This document shows, in pieces, positions 32,124-51,049 of a stretch of 64,000 nt of DNA; the stretch's first letter is position 1; each line of letters starts with the position of its first letter. Where the stretch lies: IMG/VR virus record IMGVR_UViG_3300032163_000010, positions 1 through 64,000 of that record, one strand, 5' to 3'. Under the pieces are notes generated by a model. That model saw only the letters and a program-made list of their open reading frames with translations. It ran no database searches and was not told where the DNA came from. The translations under genes were made by a program, and so were the position numbers. The stretch comes from a virus.

Positions 32124-32145
32124 AAATAAGAGTTATCAATATCAC

Positions 32146-36922: not shown

Positions 36923-37636
36923 ATGAAAATCTGTTTGATCCCACCAGATAGTTGGCTACATGCAGGAACGGATATGCATTATGTCCTAGCACAGAGGGTC
37001 CTTCAGTCAGATGTGTATAAGGACTTCTATGCGAAGGAGGACAAGTTCAAGATTATGGATCATGGCATTTACGAAAATGACATGATGGATTTTGACGATA
37101 CGATGAAAATAGCGGATGAGATAAACGCTGACGAGATTGTTCTTCCGGATGAGATTAAGATAAGACAGCCTCTTGAGTTTTACGCGGACTTGATTGAATC
37201 GTTACCGAGGAATTATAGGTATATGATTGTCCCACAGGGAGATGATCCGGAAGAGTGGCGGCAATCCTATCTGGAGTTGTGTAACTTAGACGGGATAGAT
37301 ACTATAGGAATACCGGTTTGGTTGTACAAAGATTTCTCGGCGAGAGCGACTGTGGTTAATTATATGTTTAGGAAAGGGGAACTGAACCTTCAGAAGGATC
37401 ATCATTTGCTAGGACTGGATAATTATTGGGAGTTGATCAACTACCCTCCAGGGGTTATTCGAAGTGTCGATACTAGTTTACCATTTTCGATGGTCATGGC
37501 AGGAGAGAAATCCGCTTGGGGTTATGATCCACCTGAGCACAAAAGAGCGTCGTCAGATGCAGCGTTGTTCGATATCTCCGCGGAAGATTTGGCGAGAGAG
37601 CTAAAGATGTTCAAGGAGATAGCAAGACTAGTCTAG
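36923..37636 (+). CDS. dpdA: TGT-fold 7-deazaguanine transglycosylase (DpdA-like)
   Basis: KIMDHG, IVLPD, MIVPQG, HHLLG and RSVDTS are colinear with TGT motifs DSGG, xD, QG, YLMG and the nucleophile Asp. No C-terminal Zn site. que genes are in the same genome. Confidence 0.65.
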   Translation: MKICLIPPDSWLHAGTDMHYVLAQRVLQSDVYKDFYAKEDKFKIMDHGIYENDMMDFDDTMKIADEINADEIVLPDEIKIRQPLEFYADLIESLPRNYRYMIVPQGDDPEEWRQSYLELCNLDGIDTIGIPVWLYKDFSARATVVNYMFRKGELNLQKDHHLLGLDNYWELINYPPGVIRSVDTSLPFSMVMAGEKSAWGYDPPEHKRASSDAALFDISAEDLARELKMFKEIARLV

Positions 37637-37867
37637 GTATGGATAGGGAGGTTAAGAGATGAGCGCTGGCAAGATAATATCCTGCTGGGATCTGATGGAA
37701 GAAGCAGCAAAGACGATGATCTCACAATCACAGGAGCTTGTCAACGAACACCTGAAAGTCATCAGGAACCTGAATATGATTATCGAGCGATGCGAAAAGA
37801 CGAAATCACTTGAAGAACAGATTAGGGAAAAGGATAAACAAATACAGGATCTCAAAAACAACGAGGG

Positions 37868-40800
37868 ATGATAATGACGATTAAAACTGACTTGATGAAT
37901 ACAGACTACGTCGAGGAGGACAATAAGCCATGCTTATGGTGGTTCCTCAGGGATGTAGAAGGGAAGAGGGTCAAAAGAAAGTTCTCTTGGGTCAAGCCAC
38001 ACGCGTGGAACAACGATCCGAGCTCAGGGCCGGCGACCAAGGATATATTTGGACGCACGGTATATGAGTGGACGACAAGGATGCCTTCGGAAATAGGCGG
38101 AGGGCGAGACAGATATTCGATGACATGCGAGGCAGATGTTCTGTTTCCAATGAGGGCTATGATAGACTTGGACGTCTACTGTGGGGTAGAGATTGCAGAG
38201 GATAATTCGATCAAGGCAGTAGAAAATCACGGAATCCCACCGGTATATTCGTTGTTTGATTTTGAGTACTTTTCACCGAAAGAGATTATGCCAATGCCAG
38301 GAGATCCGAAGTGGCCTGCGGTTACAGTACAATGGGGTCTCACGTCGGACAATATTATACATGTTATCGTACTGAATTTCGTGAGCCAGACACAAGCTCC
38401 TGCAGGGATCTTAACTGAGAAGTTGATCGCTGAATCGATTATACGGAAATTCATCTGGGAGAACTTCAAATCGATCACTGTCCATATCGAGCTCAAGGAT
38501 GAGAAAACTGGCAAGTGGCTCATTGAACCGCAGGATCTCACGTATCCGGTAGAGGTAACCATCGTTGAGGATGAGAGGGATCTATTCATCAAGTTCGCTG
38601 AATGGCATGAGTCGGCCGATGTAGATGGCTGGGCAGGATATAACTCTAATAACTATGATTGGCCTATGTACTTTCGTCGAGCCGATCGATTGGGTATCAG
38701 TTGGCTGGTCGCTCAACACATTAGCCCGTTGCATCGGGCATCAGCTAGGTTCAATCAACAATATAAGAAATGGGATGTCCATATATGGGGTCAGACGATT
38801 ACTGACCTGAATGAGATTTACAAAAAGTACATCAAACCCTCCGGAGAGCGAACGTCCTATGATTTCAAAATCGTTGTCAAAGACGAGTGTGGGTTCGCAT
38901 ATGATGACCTTGGAGCGTTCATTAAAACAACTTACGAGAATGACCCACAAGCTTTGATCGAGTACGCTGCCAAAGACGTCATAGCATTGAAATTGTTGAA
39001 TGAGAAGTGCGATTTGCTTCCTTACATTGATGTGTTGAGGCGAGTCGCGGGGACTCCGTTTGACAAAGCCACTTCGAACAAGGCCCTCATCGATACAATG
39101 TGTCTGAGACTTGCAGATGCCCCGTTGCCAACTGGAATCAAACATTTGAAGACCAAGAAGGCAACTGGTGCGTTGGTCATCATGCCCGAAGTAGGGCTGC
39201 ATGAATGGGTCATATTGCTTGATCTCAAGTCAATCTATCCGACGATGATTATTGCATACAACCTAAGTCCGGAGTGTAAAGATCCTAACGGAGAGATTCA
39301 AATCCCAATCGTGGATGCATTTGGTCGCATAGTGGAGTACGTTGGATTCAGAAAGAGCCCTCAAGGAGTCCTCCCGAAGGTTGCCGCACACATGATGGTG
39401 CTGAGAGAACACTACCGCACGTTGGGACGAGAGATCGAGTCACAAGCGAACTTCGATAAACAATACAGAGAACGGATTAAATCTCAGGAAACCGTAGCGA
39501 AGTTCCTTGCGTGTGCAATTAATGGAGTCCTAGCTTATCCAGGGTTCAGATTATATGATCCTGAAGTATTCAACTGTGTCACATCGATCACGCGATCTGT
39601 GATTTGGAAGATCCGAGGGTTCCTTGAACCGAAGGGGTTCAAGACCATGTATGGAGACAGTGTCTCAGCAGATTCCCCGGTATTAATAAAGAGGGATAAT
39701 GAAATCGATATACTCCCGATAAGTGAATTAGCCCCGACCGCTGAGGGAAGATACGCATTAGATAATATTGAAGTATGGACGAGAAATGGGTTTAAACAAG
39801 GACATTATGTTAAGGTCTCAAATCCTCATAAAACGATGTATAGAGTAAATACAATAGACGGAATTGTAGATGTAACTGAAGATCATTCATTGTTCGATCT
39901 AGAAGGAAAAGAAGTCAAACCAACAGAATTACCGAAAAGAATAGAAACGGTAGTATATCCTATAAGACTAGGACAAACAGAGATATCAGAAGATGAAGCT
40001 TGGTTGCTAGGATTGATTTGTGCCGAAGGAAGCCTTATAGGGAATAACGAACAACCAGTTATAAGTTGTGATGAAGATAAATTAAGATGGGCGAAAGAAA
40101 TACTTGATGGAATGGGGTATGAATCATGGTTACATGATTACACTGAATCATCGAAGTGTTGGAGATTATGTGTATCGACTAAAGCGAGAGGTTTATTTAG
40201 GGAATGCACAACAGGGTTATCTGGTTGGAAAGGAAGAAATAAGAAGGTTCCAAAACGAATCCTTAACTCCGGCAAGGATGCTATGATAGGGTTCTTAAGG
40301 GGGTTGTGGGCAGGAGACGCCCCAGTTGATCAGGGAAATTATATTGATGAGTTTAAGAGAATTGATTTACGGTCACAGTCATTAATAGTGGGGGTGGAAT
40401 ATATAATGTATCAATTAGGATTCGTGACATCTTGGAGAAGTGCAGGATCAAACAAATTATCATATGGATTAAGAATAGGGAAAACCAAGAAGATTGCATC
40501 AGGGGTGGTAAGGGAAGTAAAAGAGATTCAATACAAAGATCTAGTGTACGATATCGGTACAAATGATGGAACGTTCGCTATAGGCAGGGTTGTAGCACAC
40601 AACACCGATTCGATCTTTATTAAACTGACCGCAACGAATAAAGAGGACGCAGCGAGGCAAGGTTTCGAGATCGAAACGATGGTTCAAGAATATATTACTG
40701 AATGGACGAGGTCCCTTGGAGCAACGTATCCGATAGATGTCAAGTTCGAACATTTGTTTGATCGGATTTTGTGGAAGAAAAGAGCCAAGGGAGATGACCC

Positions 40801-41383
40801 CGCGAAGAAGCACTACGGAGGTCACTATATCATGAAGGACGGTGCATGGAAGGAAGGGCTCAAGATCTCCGGATTGGCTCCTAAGTCATCGGCAAGTGCT
40901 TTGTTCACGAGGAAATTGACTAGTCAGTTCCTTGAGTTAGTTCTTGAGAAACATGACATCGATTCAGCAGTAATGATCGTGAGCCAAGCTTGGGAAGGGA
41001 TCTTGCTGACCAAGGACGTTTCAACTATTGGGATTCCCAAGGGGTTACATCAAGTAGTGGCCGATCCAGAAGACGCTCACGGATCGACTAAGCCGTGGAT
41101 CGAAGGGGTATTCCATGCAAAGAAGGTCTTTCAGTGGAGGTTTTCTGAAGATGACAAGCCTAAGTTGATTTATACGGTTCCTACAAAGGAGTTCCCATAT
41201 AAGACTCTATGTTTGAATGTTGATCAAACGACAATCCCTAAGGGGGTTCGGGTCGATTGGAACCTTCAACGGGAGAAGGTCATCAAGAACAAGTTTTTCG
41301 AACTACTTGAAGCCATAGGTCGTGATTGGTCAGAGATCGAATTCAAAGTCCGCAAGACAAGGATGGATCAGTTCTTTGGTTAA
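37868..41383 (+). CDS. polB: Family B DNA polymerase with intein
   Basis: Exo I FDFE, Exo II GYNSNNYDW, Exo III YAAKD, motif A DLKSIYP, motif C YGD|TDS and KKHY; motif B is atypical (KFLACAING). Confidence 0.93.
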   Translation: MIMTIKTDLMNTDYVEEDNKPCLWWFLRDVEGKRVKRKFSWVKPHAWNNDPSSGPATKDIFGRTVYEWTTRMPSEIGGGRDRYSMTCEADVLFPMRAMIDLDVYCGVEIAEDNSIKAVENHGIPPVYSLFDFEYFSPKEIMPMPGDPKWPAVTVQWGLTSDNIIHVIVLNFVSQTQAPAGILTEKLIAESIIRKFIWENFKSITVHIELKDEKTGKWLIEPQDLTYPVEVTIVEDERDLFIKFAEWHESADVDGWAGYNSNNYDWPMYFRRADRLGISWLVAQHISPLHRASARFNQQYKKWDVHIWGQTITDLNEIYKKYIKPSGERTSYDFKIVVKDECGFAYDDLGAFIKTTYENDPQALIEYAAKDVIALKLLNEKCDLLPYIDVLRRVAGTPFDKATSNKALIDTMCLRLADAPLPTGIKHLKTKKATGALVIMPEVGLHEWVILLDLKSIYPTMIIAYNLSPECKDPNGEIQIPIVDAFGRIVEYVGFRKSPQGVLPKVAAHMMVLREHYRTLGREIESQANFDKQYRERIKSQETVAKFLACAINGVLAYPGFRLYDPEVFNCVTSITRSVIWKIRGFLEPKGFKTMYGDSVSADSPVLIKRDNEIDILPISELAPTAEGRYALDNIEVWTRNGFKQGHYVKVSNPHKTMYRVNTIDGIVDVTEDHSLFDLEGKEVKPTELPKRIETVVYPIRLGQTEISEDEAWLLGLICAEGSLIGNNEQPVISCDEDKLRWAKEILDGMGYESWLHDYTESSKCWRLCVSTKARGLFRECTTGLSGWKGRNKKVPKRILNSGKDAMIGFLRGLWAGDAPVDQGNYIDEFKRIDLRSQSLIVGVEYIMYQLGFVTSWRSAGSNKLSYGLRIGKTKKIASGVVREVKEIQYKDLVYDIGTNDGTFAIGRVVAHNTDSIFIKLTATNKEDAARQGFEIETMVQEYITEWTRSLGATYPIDVKFEHLFDRILWKKRAKGDDPAKKHYGGHYIMKDGAWKEGLKISGLAPKSSASALFTRKLTSQFLELVLEKHDIDSAVMIVSQAWEGILLTKDVSTIGIPKGLHQVVADPEDAHGSTKPWIEGVFHAKKVFQWRFSEDDKPKLIYTVPTKEFPYKTLCLNVDQTTIPKGVRVDWNLQREKVIKNKFFELLEAIGRDWSEIEFKVRKTRMDQFFG
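39659..40603 (+). mobile_element. Intein with LAGLIDADG homing endonuclease in PolB motif C (315 aa)
   Basis: YGD|SVSADSP...VTEDHSL...LLGLICAEG...FLRGLWAGD...VYDI...VVAHN|TDS; more AT-rich than the exteins. Confidence 0.92.
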
Positions 41384-41807
41384 AACTGTTGCTGTGGACT
41401 TCGATGGAGTAATTGCATTCTATGATGGTTGGAGAGGGGGGTATCATATCGGGGAACCGAACCCTGAGGGGGCTGCGTTACTTTGGTTGTTCCAAGAAGC
41501 AGGGATCAGGGTCATCATCTATACTTGCCGAACGAACAGATCGAAACCTCAGGAGTATGATTATGATAAAGTCGAGGAACTGATCAAAGAATGGATGAAG
41601 AAACACAACTTGCCGTATGATTACCTCTGTGTACAGATGGACGGTAAGCCCTATGCGGATGTCTACGTGGATGATAAGACGGCGTATTTTGCACCGAATA
41701 TAGGACCAGCGAAAGCGGTCTTTGAGGAGGTTGTGAGAATCATCAATAGCCATCCCGATAGGGGTACTACGGGAACTGATATGCCGAGGGCAGGTGAGAG
41801 GCCATGA
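41376..41807 (+). CDS. HAD-superfamily phosphatase (nucleotidase-like)
   Basis: VAVDFDGVI, IYTCR and KPYADVYVDD. Confidence 0.85.
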   Translation: MVKTVAVDFDGVIAFYDGWRGGYHIGEPNPEGAALLWLFQEAGIRVIIYTCRTNRSKPQEYDYDKVEELIKEWMKKHNLPYDYLCVQMDGKPYADVYVDDKTAYFAPNIGPAKAVFEEVVRIINSHPDRGTTGTDMPRAGERP

Positions 41808-43959
41808 CAATGATTGAGTTAACGGAGCAACAGAAGGAATGCAAGCATCGAGCCTTGTCTGTTCGTGTCTCGGCTGAGACTTATTCAAAGTACGGTAAGA
41901 CATTCCATAAGGTCGAGGTGGTTTGCCCTGACTGCGGAGTCTGTGTAGCAAGGGCTGGTGAGGTTTGGTTCAATCGTAGAATGACAATCTACGGTATTCT
42001 TGATGAGCATTGGCCGAAGTTGCTCTTACAACCGGGAATGAAGAAGGATTAACTTGCGATAGGTGAGAAATTATGAAGAAACCTGAAGGCGTCAAGTGTC
42101 GTGATTGTGCGTATTTCTATTGGTACGCAGGTATGTGTGAATCTTATCATGGTTTCATCCATGGAGACAATAAGGACTGCAATCGATTTGTACTCAAGAC
42201 AAAGAGTGAACCGGGATATGAGTACTATGACCCGTTGCCCTCCCCTGAGATAGTAGCATTAGTTAAGGCAGCTGTTGGAAAAGACAACTGCAGAATCTGT
42301 GGAACAAAGCTCGATTGGGCAGATACTGAGGAAGTTTCTGGGTGCAAAGAACAAGTATGCGGGAACTGCTGTTCACTTGGAAGATGTACTGTTGATTGTG
42401 ACTTTGCCTATGTGCCGTTAAAGTAAAGGTGTCAATAATGGTAGCTAAGTTATCAATCGGATGGAACAATCGTGGTTACCAACTAGGCACGGGCATTCAT
42501 TCAGGTTGGGAGATGGTCTATCACTGGATTAAGGATCGTAATATAGAGGAGCTATACTGGAGGCAATTGGAGTTAGAATGCCCAATCTGCGACAGCCCAA
42601 TTTCTAGTGCTAAAGTACCTGCTCCAGTATCAGTGGTAATCTTCAGATGTAAGAACGGGCATAAGTTTAGTTACGAGAATACTGATTGATTGGAGAGACC
42701 TACTATGGATGAGATAGAGATACTTAATTCATGGAAGGAGCGACTTAATAAGTTCTTCCGTGAGCTCCAGGCAGATGGCTGGATCTTAGATGATGAGAAT
42801 GAGTTATTATTAGTGTTTTCCTCAAAGATACTTGAGCTTGGAAGGATACCAATTGAGACTGTTGGTAAGTTGATGGTGAAAGACCCTACTATGCATCCAA
42901 CTGAAATTGTACTGAAGATAAGAGCACATCTGCTTCTTAAGGAGAGATGAAAGGTTGATCGCACGAGATTTGATGGAGCGAGTGAAGATGGCACATCCGA
43001 CCCGGACGCGATGCCTCAACCTTGGGAGGGAGTGTATGTCCTCACTCCCGTGGACTGGGGTTTGGGGAACGCATACTGGAAAAGAAGCGCAGGGTTGTAC
43101 TCGAGGTCCAGTCAAGACACTTACTCCTAACTCGAGATGTGATTAGCCTTATGGGGGATGAGGGTTGTGAATGATGCACAAAGGAAAACTATAAATACAA
43201 TCCGTGAGACTGAAATGTATCAGGAGTTCACATATTCCGAAGGGCCTGGAAGCGTTGTAAAGATAGGTATTAATGGTGTTGAGTACTTTATTAAGGAGGA
43301 CGGTACAATTCACTCTCCTTCGAGGATTATTTGTGACATGTGTAAACATTCGTTCGAGATGAGGAAATGACACCATGCAGAGTCGCAATATCGGAGCATA
43401 TGCTGAAAGTTGTGACGACTTTAAAGACGCTCAATGTAAGGGTTATATTGGAGTAGAAGGTGATTATCAGTGTCCAAAGAAATACGAAGTTTGTTGTGCA
43501 TATTGCGAAGAGAACACAGGGTGTCCAGAGTTCTGCCCGATGTTAACAGTTCCGAAGAGTGAGAACATTGCAGATGATAATTCGCGTACATGAGAACAGA
43601 GCCAAATTCGATTGGGGAGGATGGTTGCAATGGAAACCCTCAGGAACGAAAACATGGTATATGATGCATCGAGGAGCCATCGTTCCATTAGAGATGCGAG
43701 ATAGGTTCCAAGAGTGCATAGATGAGATGTTATCATACCAAGTGGCATATGAGGTGAGAGGGGAGTGGAACAAGGAAGAGAAGAAAATGCTAATAGAGAG
43801 CATCGTGGGCCCAATCGGGTAGAGTTCCCATTTGATCATAGGGAAGGGACAATAGGGCCATCCTTATGGTATGATCACCCTCAGCAATGCTGGACCGCAC
43901 CAAAATGGGAAGAACAAACCAAAGGAGGTCTAGGGATAGTGGATCATGAGGGGGTCTAG
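41804..43959 (+). other. Cluster of small, mostly Cys-rich hypothetical genes
   Basis: ORFs 41804-42052, 42073-42426, 42429-42689, 42690-42950, 43158-43370 and 43375-43593, several with CxxC motifs. Confidence 0.6.
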
Positions 43960-43962
43960 GGG

Positions 43963-44253
43963 TTGCTTGAAAAAACAGACGAGGGGAAGATAAAATCCGT
44001 TGACGACGATGCAACGGCATTGTTGATCAAGAGATCGGGTGTCTATGGAACGCAATTCCCAGCATGGAGATTCATGTCTATTGATGCTATATTGTGTGGG
44101 GTCATCTATAAAAGTGACCGCGCTCGAGTAACCAAGGATTTAAATAAAAAGTACGACGATATCAAAGATGCTATCAATTATCTGCGGTTCGTCGGAGTAA
44201 GGGTCAAGGAGGAGATAGAATGTCAGAAAAGCCTGTCAAAACCTCCACAGTAG
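43963..44253 (+). CDS. MazG-like / nucleotide-modification-associated helical domain protein
   Basis: LLIKRSGVYG...KSDR...DDIKDAINY resembles the K...YG...K..R...D...D..NY pattern. Confidence 0.55.
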   Translation: MLEKTDEGKIKSVDDDATALLIKRSGVYGTQFPAWRFMSIDAILCGVIYKSDRARVTKDLNKKYDDIKDAINYLRFVGVRVKEEIECQKSLSKPPQ

Positions 44254-44330
44254 ATGCAGTGCTGAAAACTTCAACAACGAAGACAATTACAGTGGATGCT
44301 GTGATGAAGAAACTAGAGGAAGAGAAATGA
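44220..44330 (+). CDS. 36-aa microprotein made of two tail-fibre-type repeats
   Basis: AAGGAGGAG RBS; MSEKPVKTSTVDAVLKTSTTKTITVDAVMKKLEEEK*. Confidence 0.6.
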   Translation: MSEKPVKTSTVDAVLKTSTTKTITVDAVMKKLEEEK

Positions 44331-44510
44331 TATGGATTTCAAAAAAGGAAAGTTCTGTTTGCATATCGAAGAGTCAACAGATGCCAGTAAATTCACAACC
44401 ACGTCTATACAGTATGACAATAATCGGTTACTTAACTTGACAAGAGATGATCTTGAGGTTCTCAGAATTCTAGTGAACAGGGTTATTAGTTATCTGAACG
44501 AGGACTAGGG

Positions 44511-45335
44511 ATGAACGAGAGAAATCCCGACAAGTTGTTTATTCACAAGTCCGGGCTTAGCGCATGGAGACAATGTCCGAGGAAGTTTTATTGGATGTAT
44601 CTTAAACCACAGGATCCTGCGATGACAGAGGAGAGCATCGCGATGGAGCATGGAGCGACGTTTCACGATGTCGCTAGGAGGTTTACGTACCTCTATGATG
44701 TCGATGTGCTCTTTAGCTACCCGACATGGATGGACAGGTTGAAGTACCTATCGGGGTGTATCCCTGTGGGATTGACGAAAACCATATGGGATTGGATGCA
44801 GAATCTCGCGGACTTCGAAGCGAGGAGGTCTCTGGGATGGAAATTAGATCGATCGATGTTCAAACCGGTTGTGATGGAGAAATACCTTGAATCTGAAGAG
44901 TTCGGCTACGCGGGGACGTTAGATAGGATAGATCATTATGATGAGACGTCGTATGTAGTGATTGATTATAAACCAAGGATATATAACTTGAGCAGTTTGA
45001 GACAGGAACAGGCGATATATTGGGTCTTGGCGAACGATCAATTGAAGTTGGATAAGCCGGTCAACTACTGGGGGGTCATAGCTTACGATGAGGGCATTTA
45101 CCGAACTGAGGAGTTCAAGAAGGTCACGTTCACAGCTCTGAGGAAGAATACCGCGTATCTACAAACGGATATTGATAAGTACAAGAAGGAGCCATCCGAG
45201 GAACTCTTTCCGTTAAAGGTAGGCGAATATTGCGACTGGTGTGGGTTTTTGTCAATTTGTTATCAAGACCCAAAGTACGTTGAAATAGCTTTAGGAGGAG
45301 GTAAAGATGGAGAAGAAGCTGATATTGGCGAGTGA
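44511..45335 (+). CDS. Cas4/AddB-like PD-(D/E)XK exonuclease with Fe-S cysteines
   Basis: QCPRKF, HGATFH, GTLDRID, VIDYK and CDWCGFLSIC. Confidence 0.85.
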   Translation: MNERNPDKLFIHKSGLSAWRQCPRKFYWMYLKPQDPAMTEESIAMEHGATFHDVARRFTYLYDVDVLFSYPTWMDRLKYLSGCIPVGLTKTIWDWMQNLADFEARRSLGWKLDRSMFKPVVMEKYLESEEFGYAGTLDRIDHYDETSYVVIDYKPRIYNLSSLRQEQAIYWVLANDQLKLDKPVNYWGVIAYDEGIYRTEEFKKVTFTALRKNTAYLQTDIDKYKKEPSEELFPLKVGEYCDWCGFLSICYQDPKYVEIALGGGKDGEEADIGE

Positions 45336-46008
45336 AGAAAAGACATTGAAGGAACGGGTCCTCTCAGAGTTATCGTTCAGAAATCATAAGGTCCTTATTA
45401 GGTGTGAGAGGGTTCCTCAGATGAGGGATGTTATTCTCAAGTGGACGAGCGACAGAAGTCCTATGGTAGTCAATGTCAACGTTCAACGATGTGGTCTAGT
45501 GGTATTGTTCGCCACAGGTACGACATTGACTTTCGTAGTTAACGACGTAGGTGATACATCGAAGTATGACCTAGTCATTGACGAGCGTGAGAAAAATGAA
45601 GTGGAATGAGGTTCTGAAGGGGTCGCAAGATCCCGTTTTTTTCCTTCCTTCGTCAGGGGTGAAGAAACACGCACTGATAAAGGTTCCGACAGGGAGGAAA
45701 ATCGATATGGGAAAACTGAGAACTCTGATTGGAGTTCCAGTAGTACAAGTAACGGATATGAAGACTCTACCAGAAAGGATGAGAGACCAGCAAATATTGA
45801 TAGTTCAGATAGACGATATTGGGATGTCTCAGGAAGTGTTGTCTGTTGGGCGAACACTGGATTCAGGGATGGTCTTGGTTAATACAACCATGGGTGAGAT
45901 GTTCTATAATTCGTTTGCCATATTATGGGTCATCTATTCACAGGGAACCCCGTCTGAGGAACTCAAGAAGTCCTGTGTCGAAGTGGAGATATCCGAGGAG
46001 GAAGATAT

Positions 46009-46731
46009 ATGGGAGGAAAAGCAATAGCAATCTGTTCAGGTGGGCTCGATTCCACGGTGATGTTGTATGAGATGGTTCATCGGGGGATTGAGACAATAGT
46101 TCTAAGTTTCGATTACGGACAGAAGCACAAGATCGAACTTGATTACATCGAGAGAACAGCGAAGAAGTTAGGGTTGCTATGGATCTTAGAACGCATGCCT
46201 ACGTTCTCAAGTGCCCTCACAAATCTCTCGGAGACTATCCCAATGACAGATTATGATGACAAAGCTCAGAGGGTTACGGTCGTACCGAATAGGAATATGA
46301 TAATGATTGCTATTGCCGCAGGATATGCGATACAAAATAAAGCAAGGGAAGTATGGTATGCAGCACATACGGGAGATCATGCGATATATCCGGATTGTAG
46401 AGAGGAGTTCGTGAGACCCTTGGCAGAGGCGTTGTATAAGGGAACGTATGAGAATATAATTCTAGTTGCTCCGTTCATCGACTTAACAAAGACGGATATA
46501 GTCTTGAGGGGAGCTCATCTAGGAGTGCCATTCCAAGATACATGGTCTTGTTATAGCCCAGTTGTGATGTATCAAGCTTATACGGTTAATATCCCGCAGA
46601 AAATAGTCCTTTATCACTGTGGGCAATGTGGGACATGCAGAGAGAGGATCGAGGCGTTCAGAGAAGCGAGAGTCGCTGATCCAACTGCGTATATTAACAC
46701 ATGTGGAGTGGTAGTTAAAAATGTGTTATGA
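46009..46731 (+). CDS. queC: 7-cyano-7-deazaguanine synthase
   Basis: SGGLDS, FDYGQKH, VPNRN, YPDCR, TWSCY and CGQCGTC. Confidence 0.95.
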   Translation: MGGKAIAICSGGLDSTVMLYEMVHRGIETIVLSFDYGQKHKIELDYIERTAKKLGLLWILERMPTFSSALTNLSETIPMTDYDDKAQRVTVVPNRNMIMIAIAAGYAIQNKAREVWYAAHTGDHAIYPDCREEFVRPLAEALYKGTYENIILVAPFIDLTKTDIVLRGAHLGVPFQDTWSCYSPVVMYQAYTVNIPQKIVLYHCGQCGTCRERIEAFREARVADPTAYINTCGVVVKNVL

Positions 46732-46964
46732 TGACTACTACGATTCATACACCGGAGGCGTTCATCGATGATCGTCGATGACGTGAATTGCATCTGCGGA
46801 GGATGTCCGAAGGACGCAAGTGTCTGTCTGAAAAACGATCACTGTAGCATCCAGAGGAGTGTCATTCTAGTTCAAAACCTCCTGAGGATTATTGCACCTG
46901 ATGATGTCATTATCGAATGTCGAGTAGAGAAATGCCCGTCCAGGATTCTGAAGGAGGTAAAAGA

Positions 46965-47297
46965 ATGACAATTTATATACTTAATGCACCCGTAGCCACA
47001 AACTTCGGACTGTTTAGATACAGTAGACTAACAAGCAATGAAGTGGTAGAATTGATGAAAAGAGGCTATGTGAATGCGATAGGGCATGAGGCTACAGCTA
47101 AGTTGTTCTCCTTGGTTACCGGAATAGAGGTTAAAGCGAACAGATTACAAGTAAAAATGATTGCTGGTGACTCCGCTATAGTGTTCTGCTTGAATAGCAG
47201 ACAGCCGGAGGGCATGGTTATAACTTCCGTGGAGACACTAGAGCAGATAGGATATAGCTTTGGGTTGCTTAAAATGCTAGAAGAGGAAGTGAGATGA
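46965..47297 (+). CDS. acrIII-1: DUF1874 / AcrIII-1 viral ring nuclease (anti-type III CRISPR)
   Basis: YILNA...NAIGHEATA...NRLQVKM..GD.A.V...RQPEG.V is colinear with STIV B116/SIRV gp29; start ATG 46965 follows GGAGGT. Confidence 0.88.
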   Translation: MTIYILNAPVATNFGLFRYSRLTSNEVVELMKRGYVNAIGHEATAKLFSLVTGIEVKANRLQVKMIAGDSAIVFCLNSRQPEGMVITSVETLEQIGYSFGLLKMLEEEVR

Positions 47298-47707
47298 TGA
47301 AGCTCAGTTTCGAAGAGGATATAAAGTTTAGTGCGGCACACTACATTCCGGATCATCCGAAATGTGGCGGCATACACGGACACACGTATTTTGTTAGGAA
47401 TCTGACTGTCGAAGTCGATGAGTTTGACAAGAATGGAATGTCGATAGACTTCGGAATTATTAAGGATTACTTCAAGAGAGAATGGGATCACAAGTTTATC
47501 ATTCCTACAGAGGACGCTGATTTCTGGAAACACATTTACGAAGAGTGTGGTAACAATGCAGTTGCAGATAATCGTAAGCTTGTTAAGCATACTACCGCCG
47601 AGTATATGGCAGAGAAGATGCAAGAAGACCTAATCAATATATTCGAGCGAAGATACACGCCACACTTCACGTTGTGTGAGGGCCCAGATCAGGGAGTGGA
47701 AGTATGA
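47294..47707 (+). CDS. queD: 6-carboxytetrahydropterin synthase
   Basis: FSAAH, KCGGIHGHTY, DFG..K...DH and TAE. Confidence 0.92.
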   Translation: MMKLSFEEDIKFSAAHYIPDHPKCGGIHGHTYFVRNLTVEVDEFDKNGMSIDFGIIKDYFKREWDHKFIIPTEDADFWKHIYEECGNNAVADNRKLVKHTTAEYMAEKMQEDLINIFERRYTPHFTLCEGPDQGVEV

Positions 47708-48104
47708 CGAGGAAACTTTTGTTAATCGGTTTTCCTGATTTCCAAGAGAATCAGGTTAGGAAAATCTATGATATCATCGAGAAAGCGGTACAAGAATACA
47801 CTGGAGATCCGACGTGGTACGCGAAACTTGCACCTGGTGGAGAGACTACAGACATTACGTTAGACGACTTAAAAGAAATCGTCCGACAGATGGAATCAGG
47901 TGAAGACACAACTCACCCACGGGTAACTGGAACGTACTTTGAGGATACACTAGTGTCAGTGACACTTACTGACAAGAAGGGAGCTGGTTCTTCAGAAGAA
48001 TACCATGAGGAGTTCATCAAGATGGTGGATCTTCCCGAAGATGTTAGAGAACTGGTTTCAACGGCTTTATTGAAAGCATTAGCGGGTAGAAAGACGGTGG
48101 TTAT

Positions 48105-48275
48105 ATGAATCGCAAACTTAGGTTCATATTGTTCTCTGGCATTGGATGCACAGCCCTCATCTTGGCAGTAGTAGTGCACAATCCTGACTTAGTCAATGTA
48201 TTGATTGCAATAGGAGCTACAATCCTCGCATGGGATGCGGTGTTCATAATAGGGGATGGGATACGCGATGAGTAG
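48105..48275 (+). CDS. Small two-TM membrane protein, below the track cutoff
   Basis: MNRKLRFILFSGIGCTALILAVVVHNPDLVNVLIAIGATILAWDAVFIIGDGIRDE*. Confidence 0.55.
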   Translation: MNRKLRFILFSGIGCTALILAVVVHNPDLVNVLIAIGATILAWDAVFIIGDGIRDE

Positions 48276-48614
48276 AGTAAAAGTTCCTGCGTTTGACCCA
48301 AGTAAGGTGATAATCAAAGAAACCCATGAAGGAGACAAGCTTCGCCTAGAGGCAGCTGTGAGCATCGTTGTAGTTAGTGATATAGATAAAATTGTAATCG
48401 CAACCAACCCAGAGGTTATTGAGCACCAGAAGCACAGAATAAGAGATGCACTTGAAGTGGGTTTCATAGATTCATTCGTCGGGTACCTTAAGAGTCGAGG
48501 ACAGCAGTTCTCTAAGTTCCCGGTGCCACAGAAGGTCTTTGTTGTCAGAGAGGACCTTCAGGAAGATATTATAATAATGTCAGCGAAAAGATATGCCGAG
48601 GAGGTAAAGAAGAG

Positions 48615-49313
48615 ATGATCAGCATTGTTGAGGTATTTAGATCAATCCAAGGAGAGGGCCTCTATATAGGGCATCCCGCGATCTTCGTCCGAACCCACGG
48701 ATGCAATCTCTCGTGTGACTTCTGTGACACGAAGTACGCGTGGTATACGAACAAAGGGGAAGGTTACAGGGAAGTCGATCAGAAAGAACTTGTGAAAGAA
48801 ATAGAAGAACTGAACCAGGAGAAGGACATCATCGTACTGACAGGAGGAGAACCGATGATCTGGCAGGATCAACTAGGGGAGATTGTTAAAAAATTCCCTA
48901 TACATGTGGAAACTAATGGCACGATTCACGCAAATCTATTGATGAAGAGATATGTTAAGCATTTTACTGTGTCACCGAAGGAGTGGAATAAGATGAGCAC
49001 AGTAAGTGATGTTGAATGGTGGATCAAGGAGCTCAATACAAAAGTAGCACTGAAATTCGTTATAACTACTGAAGGGGACGTCGAGGAGATATCCGAGACG
49101 TTTAGTTTACGTAAGGCGAAAGATGTCATTCTGCAACCGGAGAGATATGCGGCAACACAGGCAGGTGATCAGCCCTGGATAACACCGCAAGGGTTGTACT
49201 TGAAGCGATTATTGGAGATAGTTGGATGGGCTAATCAGTATCTCAATGGAGTCAATTGGCGAGTTCTCCCACAATTGCACTATCTCTTGTGGGGAAATAG
49301 GAAGGGAATTTGA
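48615..49313 (+). CDS. queE: 7-carboxy-7-deazaguanine synthase (radical SAM)
   Basis: SIQGEG, FVR..GCNLSCDFCDT, LTGGEP, ETNG, VSPK and PQLH. Confidence 0.95.
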   Translation: MISIVEVFRSIQGEGLYIGHPAIFVRTHGCNLSCDFCDTKYAWYTNKGEGYREVDQKELVKEIEELNQEKDIIVLTGGEPMIWQDQLGEIVKKFPIHVETNGTIHANLLMKRYVKHFTVSPKEWNKMSTVSDVEWWIKELNTKVALKFVITTEGDVEEISETFSLRKAKDVILQPERYAATQAGDQPWITPQGLYLKRLLEIVGWANQYLNGVNWRVLPQLHYLLWGNRKGI

Positions 49314-49314
49314 A

Positions 49315-49971
49315 ATGGTAAAAAGAAACGTTTGTGCACCGGAAGATGTCATCGAACGAAGTGAGGAACATACTCCTCATCACTTTGTTCTGAGTAACAA
49401 GGATGAGATTATGGATAAGTTCCGAGAAATCTTGTCACTGGCGGGGTTCAATCCTGAGTCAGCCCCGATGAAGAGGACTCCTGAGAGACAATGGGAGGTT
49501 CTCCGAACTTTGACTGAAGGGTATGTTATCGATCCGACTCTCGACCGGATGTATAGAGACTATGCTTTAGGAGACCTTGCTGGCGTAAGGATCTGTCCAG
49601 GGATCCATTTCGTTTCTTGGTGTGAACACCATCTGATGCCATTCCATGGCACTGTAGACATCGCCTATGTTCCTGGTAACGGCAAAGTCACTGGGTTATC
49701 GAAACTTCCTCAACTAGTGCAGAAGTACGCCCGGAGACCTCAATTACAAGAGAAAATGGTTAGCCAGATCGCTGATGAATTAATGACTCGCTGTGAGGCC
49801 ATCGGAGTAATGGTCATCGCTTCTGGCTACCACACTTGTGAGATGATCGAGGGAATTCACGAGGGGTTCCATCGAGATAAGCCTTATATCACTCCAGAGA
49901 TTAGGGGATTGTTTGTAGCAAATGTGGCACTCAAGGATGAAGTTCTCTCGCACTTGGCGAGGTTGACATAA
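49315..49971 (+). CDS. folE: GTP cyclohydrolase I
   Basis: TPER, CEHHLMPFHG, GLSKL, RRPQLQE and HTC; start ATG 49315. Confidence 0.93.
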   Translation: MVKRNVCAPEDVIERSEEHTPHHFVLSNKDEIMDKFREILSLAGFNPESAPMKRTPERQWEVLRTLTEGYVIDPTLDRMYRDYALGDLAGVRICPGIHFVSWCEHHLMPFHGTVDIAYVPGNGKVTGLSKLPQLVQKYARRPQLQEKMVSQIADELMTRCEAIGVMVIASGYHTCEMIEGIHEGFHRDKPYITPEIRGLFVANVALKDEVLSHLARLT

Positions 49972-49972
49972 G

Positions 49973-50356
49973 ATGGATGAACCTAGTCCTAGGGTCACCC
50001 TCTGGTCAGTAGACTTCATCACGGTTACACTAGAGGAACTAGCGGAGATTAAGATGGAACGTGGATCGCAAAAGTTCAATAATCCTGATAATTATGTGAC
50101 AGGAGATATGATCGGTAGGTATTTGAAACACATAGGCGAATTCCTAGTAGCACTTGAAGATATGGACTATACCCGCATGATGGAATATATCGCCGACGTG
50201 CAGAACGTCGGAACATTGTTGTTCCCGAAAGTCCAGGAAGACTATATTAAACAGATGTATGAGGAAACGCAAGCTGTCGGTAGTCTGGATACCTCTGATG
50301 AGACCGCTCGGAAATCGAAACAATCCGTAGAGGAGCGAACGAGCGGACCGGAATAG
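49973..50356 (+). CDS. Putative MazG-like dNTP diphosphohydrolase (dATP/dGTP diphosphohydrolase-like)
   Basis: All-alpha; RGSQKF..PDNY...RYLKH...EYIADVQN; directly after folE. Confidence 0.45.
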   Translation: MDEPSPRVTLWSVDFITVTLEELAEIKMERGSQKFNNPDNYVTGDMIGRYLKHIGEFLVALEDMDYTRMMEYIADVQNVGTLLFPKVQEDYIKQMYEETQAVGSLDTSDETARKSKQSVEERTSGPE

Positions 50357-50401: not shown

Positions 50402-51049
50402 ATGATTTACGTCGATAGCCGTGAGCCTGCCGAAGTGATGCAGAGAGTCTGGGATAGGAAGATATCTCATATAGTGAAGAAACTCGAGGTGGCGGATTTT
50501 CAAAATGAAAAAGAAACGGCGTTTATCGAAAGGAAGAAACCAGAAGACATCTGGGGAAGAGTCCTCAATAAGAACAACGGATGGGATGATCAAATGGGGA
50601 GGCTCTCTGAATATGCTTATGCACATAATGCCATGCCTTGGCTCATCGTTGAAGGGAGCTTTGATGCCGCTATACGCCGCACCAACGGGAAGATCCATGT
50701 CGATGAGACTCGAGGAGCGATTGTCAGCGCTGCTGTTAGGTATGGAATCGCGGTCTGGAATGCCGACTCGTTGGATGACCTCCTCACCGTGGTCTGTGCT
50801 ATCTGCGACAAAGCAGATAGAGAACTAGGAGTTCCAAGGAGATTACCATTCTCTCACTTAGCTATGGATAAACGCGCAGCAATCTTGATGAACGTGTGTC
50901 ATGTAAGTTCGAGACAAGCCGAGTCGTTGTTGAATTACTTTGGATCAGTTAGAAATGTGTTGTTAGCTTCAGAAGATCAACTAGCGATTGTGAATAATGT
51001 TGGGAGGATAACTGCGAGAAAGATATGCCAGTATAAGGACTCGGTGTGA
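50402..51049 (+). CDS. ERCC4/XPF-family structure-specific nuclease with HhH domain
   Basis: IYVDSRE, ADF, IERK, LIVEG and the HhH segment LLNYFGSVRNVLLASEDQLAIVNNVG. Confidence 0.9.
   Translation: MIYVDSREPAEVMQRVWDRKISHIVKKLEVADFQNEKETAFIERKKPEDIWGRVLNKNNGWDDQMGRLSEYAYAHNAMPWLIVEGSFDAAIRRTNGKIHVDETRGAIVSAAVRYGIAVWNADSLDDLLTVVCAICDKADRELGVPRRLPFSHLAMDKRAAILMNVCHVSSRQAESLLNYFGSVRNVLLASEDQLAIVNNVGRITARKICQYKDSV

What the first reader, a model, noticed from the sequence alone, without database searches (positions are those of the whole stretch)
36923..50356. 7-deazaguanine DNA-modification system with hints of nucleotide-pool-level (pre-replicative) G replacement
Established: FolE, QueD, QueE and QueC make preQ0, and DpdA transglycosylases insert 7-deazaguanines into viral DNA to block restriction. 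Seen in sequence: all four enzymes are present. The compact TGT-fold gene sits one small ORF upstream of polB rather than with the que genes. A MazG-like gene follows folE, a second MazG-like gene lies at 43963, and a HAD phosphatase abuts polB. I see no QueF, ArcS or Gat-QueC. Inference: the virus may deplete dGTP and incorporate a modified dNTP through its altered PolB, or finish preQ0 with host or unknown enzymes encoded among 46768, 47704 and 48256.
Basis: partly seen in the sequence, partly recalled or inferred. Interest (0 to 1): 0.75.

Follow-up and report, generated by a model that had tools for sequence, protein, structure and literature searches.

The report
Archaeal-virus 7-deazaguanine DNA modification module
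This uncultured, probably archaeal, tailed virus carries intact genes to make the guanine analogue preQ0 and a minimal DpdA3-type base-swapping enzyme next to its DNA polymerase, a known kind of anti-restriction DNA modification seen here in a new host lineage.

Summary
The core observation holds. [quoted passage not shown] The 237-aa gene at 36923-37636 is a TGT-fold transglycosylase. It belongs to the DpdA3 subfamily: hhalign to Cellulophaga phage phiST DpdA3 gives 99.7% probability over the full length. It does not fit the archaeal-virus DpdA4 type. QueF, ArcS, GATase and formyltransferase were not found in the 72-kb genome.

The "MazG-like" calls are weak. 49973 has only non-significant resemblance to AF_0060/MazG-superfamily proteins. 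43963 has almost no support. The HAD gene and ORFs 46768, 47704 and 48256 are missing from the two closest relatives, so they are unlikely to be core parts.

New here: in IMG/VR, DpdA3-like genes have a DNA polymerase directly downstream in 50 of 74 usable loci. A canonical MazG lies nearby on the same strand in 39 of 80, mostly just upstream. So the placement next to PolB is the family's hallmark and not an oddity of this virus.

Most likely the virus puts dPreQ0 into its DNA by base exchange, perhaps at high level. A nucleotide-pool route is neither shown nor excluded (about 0.2).

This scan has already described the same DpdA3-MazG-polymerase arrangement on other DNA (164 notes). Verdict: new member of a known kind.

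The parts
36923..37636 (+). DpdA3-type guanine transglycosylase: 237 aa, a minimal TIM barrel without a Zn or insertion domain
   Evidence: No Pfam hit alone. The profile of 39 homologues hits DpdA 7UI4 at E 7e-6. AF2 pLDDT 92.6. The Foldseek PDB rows listed (ranks 1-50) are all TGT. VIA top hits: ArcTGT Z 17.1, DpdA Z 15.3. Best BFVD hit is phiST M4SLA5, 259 aa. hhalign against phiST CGPG_00065: 99.7%, E 2e-26, 237 columns. Against HVTV-1 DpdA4: 64.7%, 122 columns. D46, D76 and D183 are invariant; position 105 is Q or H.
37659..37871 (+). 70-aa ORF between dpdA and polB; not conserved
   Evidence: No tblastn match in 80 loci or in L083. In L002, DpdA ends at 5893 and PolB starts at 5903.
37868..41383 (+). 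Family B DNA polymerase with a LAGLIDADG intein (about 39668-40585) inserted in motif C (YGD|TDS)
   Evidence: Pfam DNA_pol_B 8e-17, exo 2.3e-6, LAGLIDADG_3. The L002 and L083 PolBs lack residues ~601-906.
41322..41807 (+). HAD-superfamily phosphatase (start uncertain); not conserved in relatives
   Evidence: phrog_1238 1.5e-18. HAD_PNKP 0.0044 and HAD-IIIA 0.0022, both below cut-off. DFDGV motif. 0 of 80 loci matched, and no match in L083.
43963..44253 (+).
   Evidence: No Pfam, NCBIfam, PHROG or PDB sequence match. Atlas lead: a cluster with DUF1599 in 16% of members. hhalign to the DpdA3-adjacent small family A5: 22%, 20 columns. Homologue in L002 at 58% identity.
44511..45335 (+). PD-(D/E)XK nuclease; conserved in L002 and L083 between polB and the que genes
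   Evidence: Pfam PDDEXK_1 1.6e-13; synteny.
46009..46731 (+). QueC, 7-cyano-7-deazaguanine (preQ0) synthase
   Evidence: Pfam 8.3e-54. TIGR00364 166.8 bits, above the 150.3 cut-off. SGGLDS and CxxCxxC motifs.
46768..46968 (+). 66-aa Cys-rich ORF; not conserved
   Evidence: No family match. No match in 80 loci or L083.
46917..47297 (+). STIV B116-like / AcrIII-1-type protein inserted in the que cluster; not part of the pathway
   Evidence: Pfam PF08960 2.9e-23. Absent from L002 and L083.
47294..47707 (+). QueD, 6-carboxytetrahydropterin synthase
   Evidence: Pfam PTPS 5.3e-16. TIGR03367 2.8e-17, below cut-off. CGGIHGH motif.
47704..48618 (+). Three ORFs of unknown function (47704-48108, 48105-48275, 48256-48618); not conserved in relatives
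   Evidence: No family at E<=0.01, except DUF3099 at 5.6e-4 and Ank at 0.0071 (both below their cut-offs) for the 56-aa ORF. No tblastn match in 80 loci or L083.
48615..49313 (+). [quoted passage not shown]
   Evidence: Pfam Radical_SAM 3.1e-14. Five best NCBIfam hits are QueE models, best 8.5e-33, all below cut-off. GCNLSCDFCDT motif.
49315..49971 (+). FolE, GTP cyclohydrolase I (the ORF is open from 49222; the ATG at 49315 follows the queE stop)
   Evidence: Pfam 5.5e-43 over residues 65-244 of the long ORF. CEHH motif.
49973..50356 (+). 127-aa helical protein, probably a divergent AF_0060-like member of the MazG superfamily; catalytic competence doubtful
   Evidence: No Pfam, PHROG or NCBIfam match. 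8 relatives besides itself in 1.84 billion representatives. 2P06 (AF_0060) is the top hit by profile (E 0.5), by Foldseek (E 0.053) and by VIA (Z 8.2). Atlas: a MazG-bearing cluster (18% of members), score 0.91. hhalign to the DpdA3-adjacent family A5: 51%, E 1.5e-4. Unrelated to phiST CGPG_00068.

Best explanation
The region is the DNA-modification part of the replication module of an uncultured tailed virus, probably of a Thermoproteota-like archaeon.

Shown:
- The 237-aa gene beside PolB is a DpdA3-subfamily transglycosylase. It has the catalytic Asp pair (general acid/base and nucleophile), the base-binding Asp and a Gln/His.

Inferred:
- DpdA3 exchanges guanine in the viral DNA for preQ0, giving 2'-deoxy-preQ0. 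No QueF, ArcS, amidotransferase or formyltransferase is present to take the base further.
- The exchange happens on DNA during or just after synthesis by the adjacent PolB.
- The substituted fraction may be high, as in the three DpdA3 viruses measured so far.
- The modified DNA resists host restriction enzymes.

The small helical protein after folE (49973) is probably an accessory of the AF_0060/MazG-like kind that accompanies DpdA3 genes. Its activity is unknown. The HAD phosphatase, the AcrIII-1 gene and the small ORFs between the que genes are lineage-specific insertions and not pathway steps.
For: Pathway genes:
- Pfam and NCBIfam matches and catalytic motifs for all four enzymes.

DpdA identity:
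- Profile hit to DpdA 7UI4, E 7e-6, aligning HLLG and the nucleophile Asp.
- Confident model, pLDDT 92.6.
- The Foldseek PDB rows listed (ranks 1-50) are all TGT.
- VIA top four are ArcTGT, DpdA, TGT and Cap10, at Z 17.1-14.1.
- Best viral structure match is phiST M4SLA5, TMq 0.81. Its 259-aa length matches CGPG_00065.
- hhalign to that protein: 99.7%, E 2e-26, full length.
- Catalytic residues are as defined for DpdA in PMC10164549, and the matching Asp columns are invariant in 39 homologues.

Guilt by association:
- 60 of 80 IMG/VR loci encoding relatives hold at least one que gene within 10 kb, always on the same strand.

Conserved module:
- L002 (69% DpdA identity) and L083 (a Thermoprotei MAG scaffold, about 38-40% identity) share this order: g34777, AAA_24, DpdA, PolB, PD-(D/E)XK, QueC/D/E, FolE, ERCC4.

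No further-processing enzymes were found in the genome.

Literature: DpdA3 viruses have 100% replacement, and the authors argue for post-replicative insertion (PMC10516641, passages).
Against: - No chemistry is available: nothing shows that this DNA is modified, at what level, or with which base.
- The enzyme lacks the large insertion that makes up 30% of bacterial DpdA, and no DpdB-like partner was identified. How it would bind DNA is therefore unexplained.
- The tight, family-wide linkage to MazG and to the polymerase fits a nucleotide-level route at least as well.
- Palindrome avoidance is weak, apart from GCGC at O/E 0.52. This is only loosely consistent with protected DNA.
- The archaeal host is inferred, not shown. 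The terminase's best matches are bacterial phages at 22-25% identity.
Confidence: 0.6

Rival explanations
1. Pre-replicative (nucleotide-pool) route. The minimal DpdA3 enzyme swaps the base on a free deoxyguanine nucleotide. A MazG-type pyrophosphohydrolase could supply dGMP and lower dGTP. Host kinases then make the modified dNTP, and the adjacent viral polymerase incorporates it, giving complete replacement.
For: - The DNA polymerase ORF starts within -200 to +1200 nt of the DpdA3-like gene's end in 50 of 74 loci with enough downstream sequence. 47 of these are PolA and 3 are PolB, so the adjacency survives a change of polymerase family (PolA Pfam in 30 of 42 records).
- Canonical MazG is present in 39 of 80 loci, always on the same strand. 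36 of 40 hits end 0-1.5 kb upstream of DpdA (Pfam MazG in 4 of 4 tested members; PF03819 in 10 of 42 records).
- The same HMM hits phiST CGPG_00068.
- The enzyme has no nucleic-acid-binding insertion.
- DpdA3 viruses show 100% replacement, and the ADG nucleoside was seen in CP220-infected cells (PMC10516641 passages).
- A modified-dGTP route was proposed earlier for Campylobacter phages (PMC6884629 passage).
Against: - This virus itself has no canonical MazG: 0 matches for PF03819, PF12643 or DUF1599 in the genome, and the MazG HMM does not hit the window, L002 or L083.
- The 49973 family keeps only part of the acidic motif.
- No nucleotide kinase or phosphoribosyltransferase turned up in the ORFs I scanned. 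That scan covered only part of the genome.
- No DpdA-MazG fusion occurs in 80 loci.
- TGT-family enzymes are known only on polynucleotides (established knowledge, recalled).
- Gene adjacency can simply reflect co-expression with replication.
Confidence: 0.2
2. The pathway ends in a base other than preQ0. One or more of the unassigned ORFs in or near the cluster (46768, 47704, 48105, 48256, 45307, 45578), or host enzymes such as ArcS or QueF-like, convert preQ0 or dPreQ0 into a further derivative.
For: - Five small ORFs without any family sit among the que genes.
- Eight different deazaguanine derivatives are already known in viral DNA, and new tailoring enzymes were found next to que genes (PMC10516641 abstract).
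- 45307 and 45578 are conserved in L002 just upstream of queC.
Against: - 46768, 47704, 48105 and 48256 have no counterpart in L002 or L083, which keep the rest of the module.
- No QueF, DUF5591, GATase_7 or Formyl_trans_N was found in the genome.
- QueF scores above its cut-off in 0 of 42 related viral records.
Confidence: 0.12
3. The genes serve RNA and not DNA. The virus boosts or alters host tRNA 7-deazaguanine (archaeosine) modification, with the TGT-fold enzyme acting on tRNA.
For: - The top structural match by VIA is archaeosine tRNA-guanine transglycosylase, Z 17.1.
- Archaeal hosts use preQ0 for tRNA position 15 (PMC6884629 passage).
Against: - The protein lacks the C-terminal domains of ArcTGT: 237 aa against 577.
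- It gives no TGT Pfam match.
- It groups full-length with DpdA3 of viruses whose DNA is modified.
- It sits in the replication module beside the polymerase in 50 of 74 loci.
- The window has no tRNA genes.
Confidence: 0.04

Closest known systems
DpdA3 system of Cellulophaga phage phiST (CGPG_00064-00071; DNA 100% 2'-deoxy-7-deazaguanine; PMC10516641)
   Same: - The transglycosylase is homologous over its full length (hhalign 99.7%; best BFVD structure hit).
- In both, a small ORF separates dpdA3 from the region the paper calls the polymerase genes, and a helical NTP-pyrophosphatase-like gene lies directly beside folE (paper passage).
- FolE, QueD and QueE are present in both.
   Different: - phiST lacks QueC and has the QueD-like DpdL, giving dDG. 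This virus has QueC and no DpdL, so preQ0 is expected.
- The gene beside folE is a canonical MazG/dUTPase in phiST. It is unrelated to 49973 here (hhalign 0.1%).
- phiST infects a bacterium. This virus has a PolB nearest to haloarchaeal viruses and a syntenic relative on a Thermoprotei MAG scaffold.
[quoted passage not shown]
   Same: DpdA3 together with the complete preQ0 pathway. This shows that DpdA3 systems can start from preQ0 (paper passage).
   Different: QueF and the formyltransferase DpdN are absent here, so the end product should stop at preQ0. I did not fetch or compare that phage's sequences.
Halovirus HVTV-1 and other Druskaviridae (DpdA4/DUF6610 + preQ1 pathway; about 30% of G; PMC10516641, PMC8651126)
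   Same: An archaeal tailed virus with FolE, QueD, QueE and QueC in its replication region. PolB, RFC-like and RecB-like genes lie nearby.
   Different: - A different transglycosylase subfamily. HVTV1_69 is 386 aa and belongs to DUF6610. hhalign to this family gives only 64.7% over 122 columns. There is no DUF6610 match in this genome.
- HVTV-1 has QueF; this virus does not.
Bacterial DpdA/DpdB preQ0 insertase of Salmonella Montevideo (PDB 7UI4; PMC10164549)
   Same: The same TIM-barrel core and the same catalytic Asp, Asp, Asp and His/Gln positions.
   Different: - Bacterial DpdA carries a 128-residue insertion after strand 8, needs the ATPase DpdB, and modifies under 0.1% of G.
- The protein here is a bare barrel, and no DpdB-like gene was identified.
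Z-genome cluster of cyanophage S-2L and relatives (MazZ, PurZ, DatZ; PMC8342488, abstract start only. That some relatives add a dedicated polymerase is recalled.)
   Same: The resemblance is in layout only: a MazG-type pyrophosphohydrolase, a base-changing enzyme and a polymerase clustered together, as seen family-wide for DpdA3.
   Different: No homology between the base-changing enzymes. Pre-replicative synthesis is demonstrated for Z but not for any 7-deazaguanine.

Membership tests
DpdA3 subfamily of DNA guanine transglycosylases | Full-length homology to the founding member, phiST CGPG_00065 | tested here: met
   hhalign of the 39-sequence profile against CGPG_00065: 99.7%, E 2e-26, 237 columns. 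Best BFVD structure hit: E 9.4e-14, TMq 0.81. Both proteins hit the same Bacillus phages by tblastn.
DpdA3 subfamily of DNA guanine transglycosylases | TGT-type TIM barrel with the general acid/base Asp, the base-binding Asp, His/Gln and the nucleophile Asp | tested here: met
   D46, D76 and D183 are invariant in 39 sequences. Position 105 is Q or H. They align with the HG and SID motifs of 7UI4. The residue roles come from PMC10164549. Fold shown.
DpdA3 subfamily of DNA guanine transglycosylases | Genetic linkage to 7-deazaguanine biosynthesis genes | tested here: met
   All four genes lie 8-12 kb downstream here. 60 of 80 related loci hold at least one que gene on the same strand.
DpdA3 subfamily of DNA guanine transglycosylases | Inserts a 7-deazaguanine into DNA; complete replacement of G in virions | not testable with these tools
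   Needs nucleoside LC-MS/MS or native-DNA sequencing. No isolate exists.
DpdA4 (Pfam DUF6610, PF20314) | Match to the DUF6610 model, or homology to HVTV1_69 | tested here: not met
   No Pfam match for this protein or anywhere in the genome at E<=10. 4 of 39 family members have weak DUF6610 hits, best 0.0033. hhalign to HVTV1_69: 64.7%, 122 columns.
tRNA-guanine transglycosylase (Pfam TGT, PF01702) | Match to the TGT model; Zn-binding and C-terminal tRNA-binding parts | tested here: not met
   0 matches in the protein and in the genome. The model is a bare barrel of 237 aa. Only the fold matches.
preQ0 biosynthesis pathway (FolE, QueD, QueE, QueC) | All four enzymes present with catalytic motifs | tested here: met
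   Only QueC exceeds its NCBIfam equivalog cut-off. The other three are best hits below cut-off.
MazG / all-alpha NTP pyrophosphohydrolase superfamily (for 49973-50356) | Match to a MazG-type model or structure | tested here: inconclusive
   No Pfam MazG, MazG-like or dUTPase_2 match. 2P06 (AF_0060) is the top hit by three methods, but none is significant: E 0.5, E 0.053, Z 8.2. Other MazG-family structures fill the weak Foldseek list.
MazG / all-alpha NTP pyrophosphohydrolase superfamily (for 49973-50356) | Metal-binding acidic motif EExxE...ExxD (motif recalled) | tested here: inconclusive
   The family keeps E56 and D75 as invariant, and E21 and E71 at 90% or more. The first acid of the EExxE pair is not conserved.
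MazG-like / DUF1599 (for 43963-44253) | Match to PF07659, PF03819 or PF12643 | tested here: not met
   0 matches. The only support is an Atlas lead, score 0.92, to a cluster with DUF1599 in 16% of members, and a 20-column hhalign match at 22% to family A5.
HAD-superfamily phosphatase (for 41322-41807) | Motif I DxDG(T/V) plus a model match | tested here: met
   DFDGV at residues 26-30. phrog_1238 1.5e-18. The Pfam and NCBIfam HAD models score below their cut-offs.

The most novel reading that the evidence does not exclude
DpdA3-type enzymes are not post-replicative DNA editors. They belong to a pre- or co-replicative substitution machine made of MazG, a small AF_0060-like partner, DpdA3 and the polymerase. 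This machine builds or installs the deazaguanine nucleotide as DNA is copied. This archaeal-virus lineage runs a stripped-down version with PolB, whose motif B is altered (KFLACAING).
Probability: 0.2. Interest if true: 0.8.

Novelty: new member of a known kind. Interest (0 to 1): 0.45.

Why it matters
It extends the DpdA3 subfamily to a lineage of probably archaeal tailed viruses. DpdA3 is the only DpdA type linked to complete replacement of guanine, and the literature I could search assigns only DpdA4 to archaeal viruses. "DpdA3" occurs in one relevant work in the library, and the search for "DpdA" with "archaeal virus" showed none placing DpdA3 in archaeal viruses.

The comparative result gives a concrete handle on an open question: is complete 7-deazaguanine replacement made on DNA or in the nucleotide pool? 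That result is a polymerase directly downstream in 50 of 74 loci and MazG nearby on the same strand in 39 of 80. It is not special to this window, and this scan has noted it in many phage genomes.

Tried and rejected
DpdA gene
- DpdA4 or ordinary TGT identity was rejected.
- Close cellular relatives were sought with the single protein. 47 pattern matches were found, none confirmed.

49973 and 43963
- Homology of 49973 to phiST's MazG/dUTPase (hhalign 0.1%) and to the canonical DpdA3-linked MazG cluster (1.2%) was rejected.
- 49973 and 43963 as paralogues was rejected (0.3%).
- An iterated HMM of the DpdA3-adjacent small family (18 loci) found no window ORF even at E<=10.
- The profile of 49973's family found only L002 among the 80 loci, and nothing in L083, L003 or phiST.

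Other checks
- Small ORF 37659 against phiST CGPG_00064: no similarity.
- No MazG-DpdA or small-family-DpdA fusions in 80 loci. I therefore could not reproduce the fusions mentioned in an earlier scan note.
- Megablast of 20 kb against phages: no match.
- Rfam at gathering level: nothing in the window.
- tRNA scan: none.
- Palindrome statistics were uninformative apart from GCGC.

Not run
- Complex prediction, because I claim no binding.
- The look-up of sequencing runs and read laying, because short reads cannot show this modification.

Limits
- Supplements were closed. Supplementary Data S1 and S13 of PMC10516641 list DpdA3 homologues. They could already contain archaeal viruses or note the synteny, and I could not see them.
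- I scanned only part of the genome's ORFs against Pfam (40 of the larger ones). Absence of kinases and similar enzymes rests on that scan and on the targeted family searches.

Full report
**What the window is.** The window is the first 64,000 bases of a 72,004-bp IMG/VR virus record that CheckV rates complete. From about 10 kb to 56 kb the genes run on the + strand with positive GC skew. The finding lies in the replication module. That module holds:
- an RFC-like clamp loader and a UDG-family gene upstream;
- an AAA_24 ATPase, the TGT-fold gene and a PolB with an intein;
- a PD-(D/E)XK nuclease, the que genes and an ERCC4-HhH nuclease;
- a second intein-bearing gene.

**Checking the observation: the pathway genes.** All four preQ0 enzymes are present and look intact.
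- QueC: Pfam 8.3e-54. NCBIfam TIGR00364 scores 166.8 bits against a 150.3 cut-off. The PP-loop SGGLDS and the CxxCxxC cysteines are present.
- QueD: PTPS 5.3e-16, with CGGIHGH.
- QueE: Radical_SAM 3.1e-14. The five best NCBIfam hits are all QueE models, though below their cut-offs. GCNLSCDFCDT is present.
- FolE: 5.5e-43, with CEHH. Its ORF is open from 49222, but the ATG at 49315, two bases after the queE stop codon ends at 49313, is the likely start.

Searches of the whole record found:
- no TGT model match;
- no QueF, beyond a 16.9-bit T-fold cross-match inside FolE;
- no ArcS DUF5591, DUF6610, GATase_7 or Formyl_trans_N.

QueC is a single-domain protein of 240 aa, so it is not a Gat-QueC fusion.

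**The TGT-fold gene.** Alone, the 237-aa protein matches no Pfam or NCBIfam family, and only an uncharacterised PHROG. It has 38 homologues (39 listed with itself) in the 5.8-billion-protein collection, none with a Pfam domain. The evidence for its identity is as follows.
- The profile of these sequences hits the solved DNA preQ0 insertase DpdA (7UI4) at E 7e-6. The alignment pairs VPQG with VAHG, HLLG with HLLG and SVDTS with SIDST.
- PMC10164549 (passages read) defines Asp95 as the general acid/base, Asp130 and His181 as base binders, and Asp256 as the nucleophile. The corresponding Asp columns (D46, D76, D183) are invariant in the 39-sequence alignment, and position 105 is Q or H.
- The AlphaFold model is confident: pLDDT 92.6, pTM 0.90.
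- The Foldseek PDB rows listed (ranks 1-50) are all tRNA-guanine transglycosylase.
- A Foldseek-independent search ranks archaeosine TGT (Z 17.1), DpdA (Z 15.3), bacterial TGT (Z 14.2) and Cap10 (Z 14.1) above generic TIM barrels.

**Which DpdA subfamily.**
- Among predicted viral structures the best match is a 259-aa protein of Cellulophaga phage phiST, at E 9.4e-14 and TMq 0.81. Its length matches CGPG_00065 in the phiST record, the founding DpdA3 of PMC10516641.
- Profile comparison with that protein gives 99.7% probability, E 2e-26, over 237 columns.
- Against the archaeal-virus DpdA4 of HVTV-1 the result is only 64.7% over 122 columns.
- phiST DpdA3 and my protein reach the same Bacillus phages by tblastn.

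The gene is therefore a DpdA3-type enzyme. It is a bare barrel without the 128-residue insertion of bacterial DpdA.

**The accessory claims.** The gene after folE (49973-50356) has no Pfam, PHROG or NCBIfam match. It has only 8 relatives besides itself among 1.84 billion representatives.
- The family's profile (E 0.5), Foldseek on its model (pLDDT 78.9; E 0.053) and VIA (Z 8.2) all put AF_0060 (2P06) first. Other MazG, PRA-PH and dCTPase structures fill the weak Foldseek list.
- The Atlas points to a cluster in which 18% of members carry MazG.
- None of this is significant, and for helical bundles such Z values are common.
- The family keeps E56, E71 and D75 but not a full EExxE pair.
- It is unrelated to phiST's MazG/dUTPase.

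The second candidate (43963-44253) has two database relatives plus an L002 homologue. It has no model or structure match. The only lead is an Atlas cluster with DUF1599 in 16% of members.

The HAD call is reasonable: phrog_1238 at 1.5e-18 and a DFDGV motif.

**Relatives and what is conserved.** A pattern scan of IMG/VR found at least 209 loci encoding relatives, of which 80 were kept.
- L002 has 69% DpdA identity and keeps the module in the same order, more compactly. DpdA abuts an intein-free PolB. It is followed by homologues of 43559, 43963, the PD-(D/E)XK nuclease, 45307, 45578, QueC, QueD, QueE, FolE, 49973 and ERCC4.
- A genome-contig scan found a 54-kb scaffold of a Thermoprotei MAG, L083, with about 38-40% DpdA identity. 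It has the same backbone: wHTH, g34777, AAA_24, DpdA, PolB, PD-(D/E)XK, QueD, QueE, FolE, QueC, ERCC4.
- L083 has no counterpart of 49973 or 43963.
- The 70-aa ORF, the HAD gene, 46768, the AcrIII-1-like gene, 47704, 48105 and 48256 have no tblastn counterpart in any of the 80 loci or in L083.

Evidence on the host:
- PolB's best matches among isolates are haloarchaeal tailed viruses, at about 24% identity.
- The terminase's best matches are bacterial phages, at 22-25% identity.
- With L083, an archaeal (Thermoproteota-like) host is likely but not shown.

**Family-wide synteny.** Across the 80 loci:
- 60 hold at least one que gene within the flanks, always on the DpdA strand. The counts are QueC 49, QueE 44, FolE 41 and QueD 13.
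- An HMM of the commonest upstream ORF cluster finds hits in 39 of 80 loci. All 40 hits are on the same strand, and 36 end 0-1.5 kb upstream of DpdA. The cluster is Pfam MazG in 4 of 4 members tested. The HMM also hits phiST CGPG_00068 (E 1.4e-14) and a Eubacteriales MAG locus, but not this window, L002, L003 or L083.
- A second small family (GxEKYG...ExxDxANY; alignment A5) sits between MazG and DpdA in 18 loci, 17 of which also have MazG. It has no Pfam match in 0 of 6 tested. Its only PDB hit is again AF_0060, at E 0.0089.
- The 49973 family resembles A5 at 51% probability, E 1.5e-4. 43963 resembles it at 22%.
- A DNA polymerase ORF starts within -200 to +1200 nt of the DpdA gene's end in 50 of the 74 loci with at least 1.5 kb downstream. 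47 are PolA and 3 are PolB. Pfam PolA occurs in 30 of 42 records.
- QueF exceeds its cut-off in 0 of 42 records.

In this virus the que block has moved 8-12 kb downstream of DpdA and PolB.

**Mechanism.**
- Shown: an intact GTP-to-preQ0 pathway and a catalytically complete DpdA3.
- Inferred: preQ0 replaces G in viral DNA. PMC10516641 reports 100% replacement in all three DpdA3 viruses measured. It argues that all deazaguanine modifications are post-replicative because a DpdA is always present. It also notes that DpdA3 could not be reconstituted in E. coli and that the ADG nucleoside was seen in infected cells.
- PMC6884629 had earlier allowed for a modified-dGTP route.
- The bare-barrel enzyme and its linkage to MazG and to whichever polymerase family the virus uses keep a nucleotide-level or replisome-coupled mechanism open.
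- This virus lacks the canonical MazG, so it is a weaker case for that route than many phage loci.

My odds: base exchange on DNA 0.6, pool route 0.2, a further-modified base 0.12, a tRNA role 0.04.

**PolB.** Motif B reads KFLACAING here, KFIACSLNG in L002 and KFLACSVYG in L083. The Asn-to-Cys change is shared by the clade, and the Tyr-to-Asn change by the two close relatives only. I could not test what this means.

**Novelty.** 7-Deazaguanine systems in archaeal tailed viruses are known (PMC8651126, PMC10516641; passages read). What is new is the DpdA3 type in this lineage.
- "DpdA3" occurs in one relevant work in the searchable library.
- A search for DpdA with "archaeal virus" listed none that places DpdA3 there.
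- The scan's own notes already describe the DpdA3, two-MazG and polymerase arrangement in phages: 164 notes in at least 139 genomes.

Verdict: a real, well-supported but ordinary member of a known kind. The pool-level idea is unproven.

Noticed in passing
window 39668-40585 (within polB 37868-41383): A LAGLIDADG intein of about 306 aa is inserted in PolB motif C, between YGD and TDS. It is absent from the PolBs of L002 and L083.
   Followed up: partly
window 51046-53109: A 687-aa gene carries a second intein (Hint, LAGLIDADG and intein-splicing matches). L002 matches only residues 6-68 and 375-394 before its locus ends, and L083 matches 41-77 and 378-455. The L083 stretch shows a P-loop-like motif, so the extein is probably an ATPase. 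It was not identified.
   Followed up: partly
window 46917-47297: A STIV B116-like (AcrIII-1-type) gene sits between queC and queD (Pfam 2.9e-23). It is absent from L002 and L083, so it is an anti-CRISPR-type insertion into the que operon.
   Followed up: partly
window 39488-39595: PolB motif B is KFLACAING here, KFIACSLNG in L002 and KFLACSVYG in L083, in place of the canonical KxxxNSxYG (canonical form recalled). The N-to-C change is shared by all three deazaguanine-module relatives.
   Followed up: partly
loci L007:9511-9885, L017:7104-7376, L035:5465-5737 and 15 others: A family of 80-130-aa proteins (GxEKYG...ExxDxANY) without any Pfam model lies between MazG and DpdA3 in 18 of 80 viral loci. 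17 of these also have MazG. Its only PDB hit is AF_0060, at E 0.0089.
   Followed up: partly
alignment A2 (relatives of 49973-50356): 7 of the 11 family members end in a conserved acidic tail, (E/D)(S/D)(S/T/R)R(F/L)(M)E, after a variable linker. The window's protein and its three closest relatives lack it.
   Followed up: no
L003:15951-17564: A related viral contig has DpdA3 directly upstream of an intein-sized-longer PolB. It carries two tandem QueC paralogues, at 34% and 31% identity to the window's QueC.
   Followed up: no
window 31179-33057: An RFC-like clamp-loader ATPase (AAA, DNA_pol3_delta2, RFC lid) is followed by a 303-aa UDG-superfamily protein (2e-37), upstream of the module.
   Followed up: no
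whole window: GCGC is the only strongly under-represented 4-mer palindrome (46 observed, 87.8 expected, z -4.5). GATC occurs 384 times.
   Followed up: no
window 50275-50346: An earlier scan note proposes a hammerhead ribozyme in the 3' end of the 49973 ORF. Rfam at gathering threshold reports no family anywhere in the window.
   Followed up: partly
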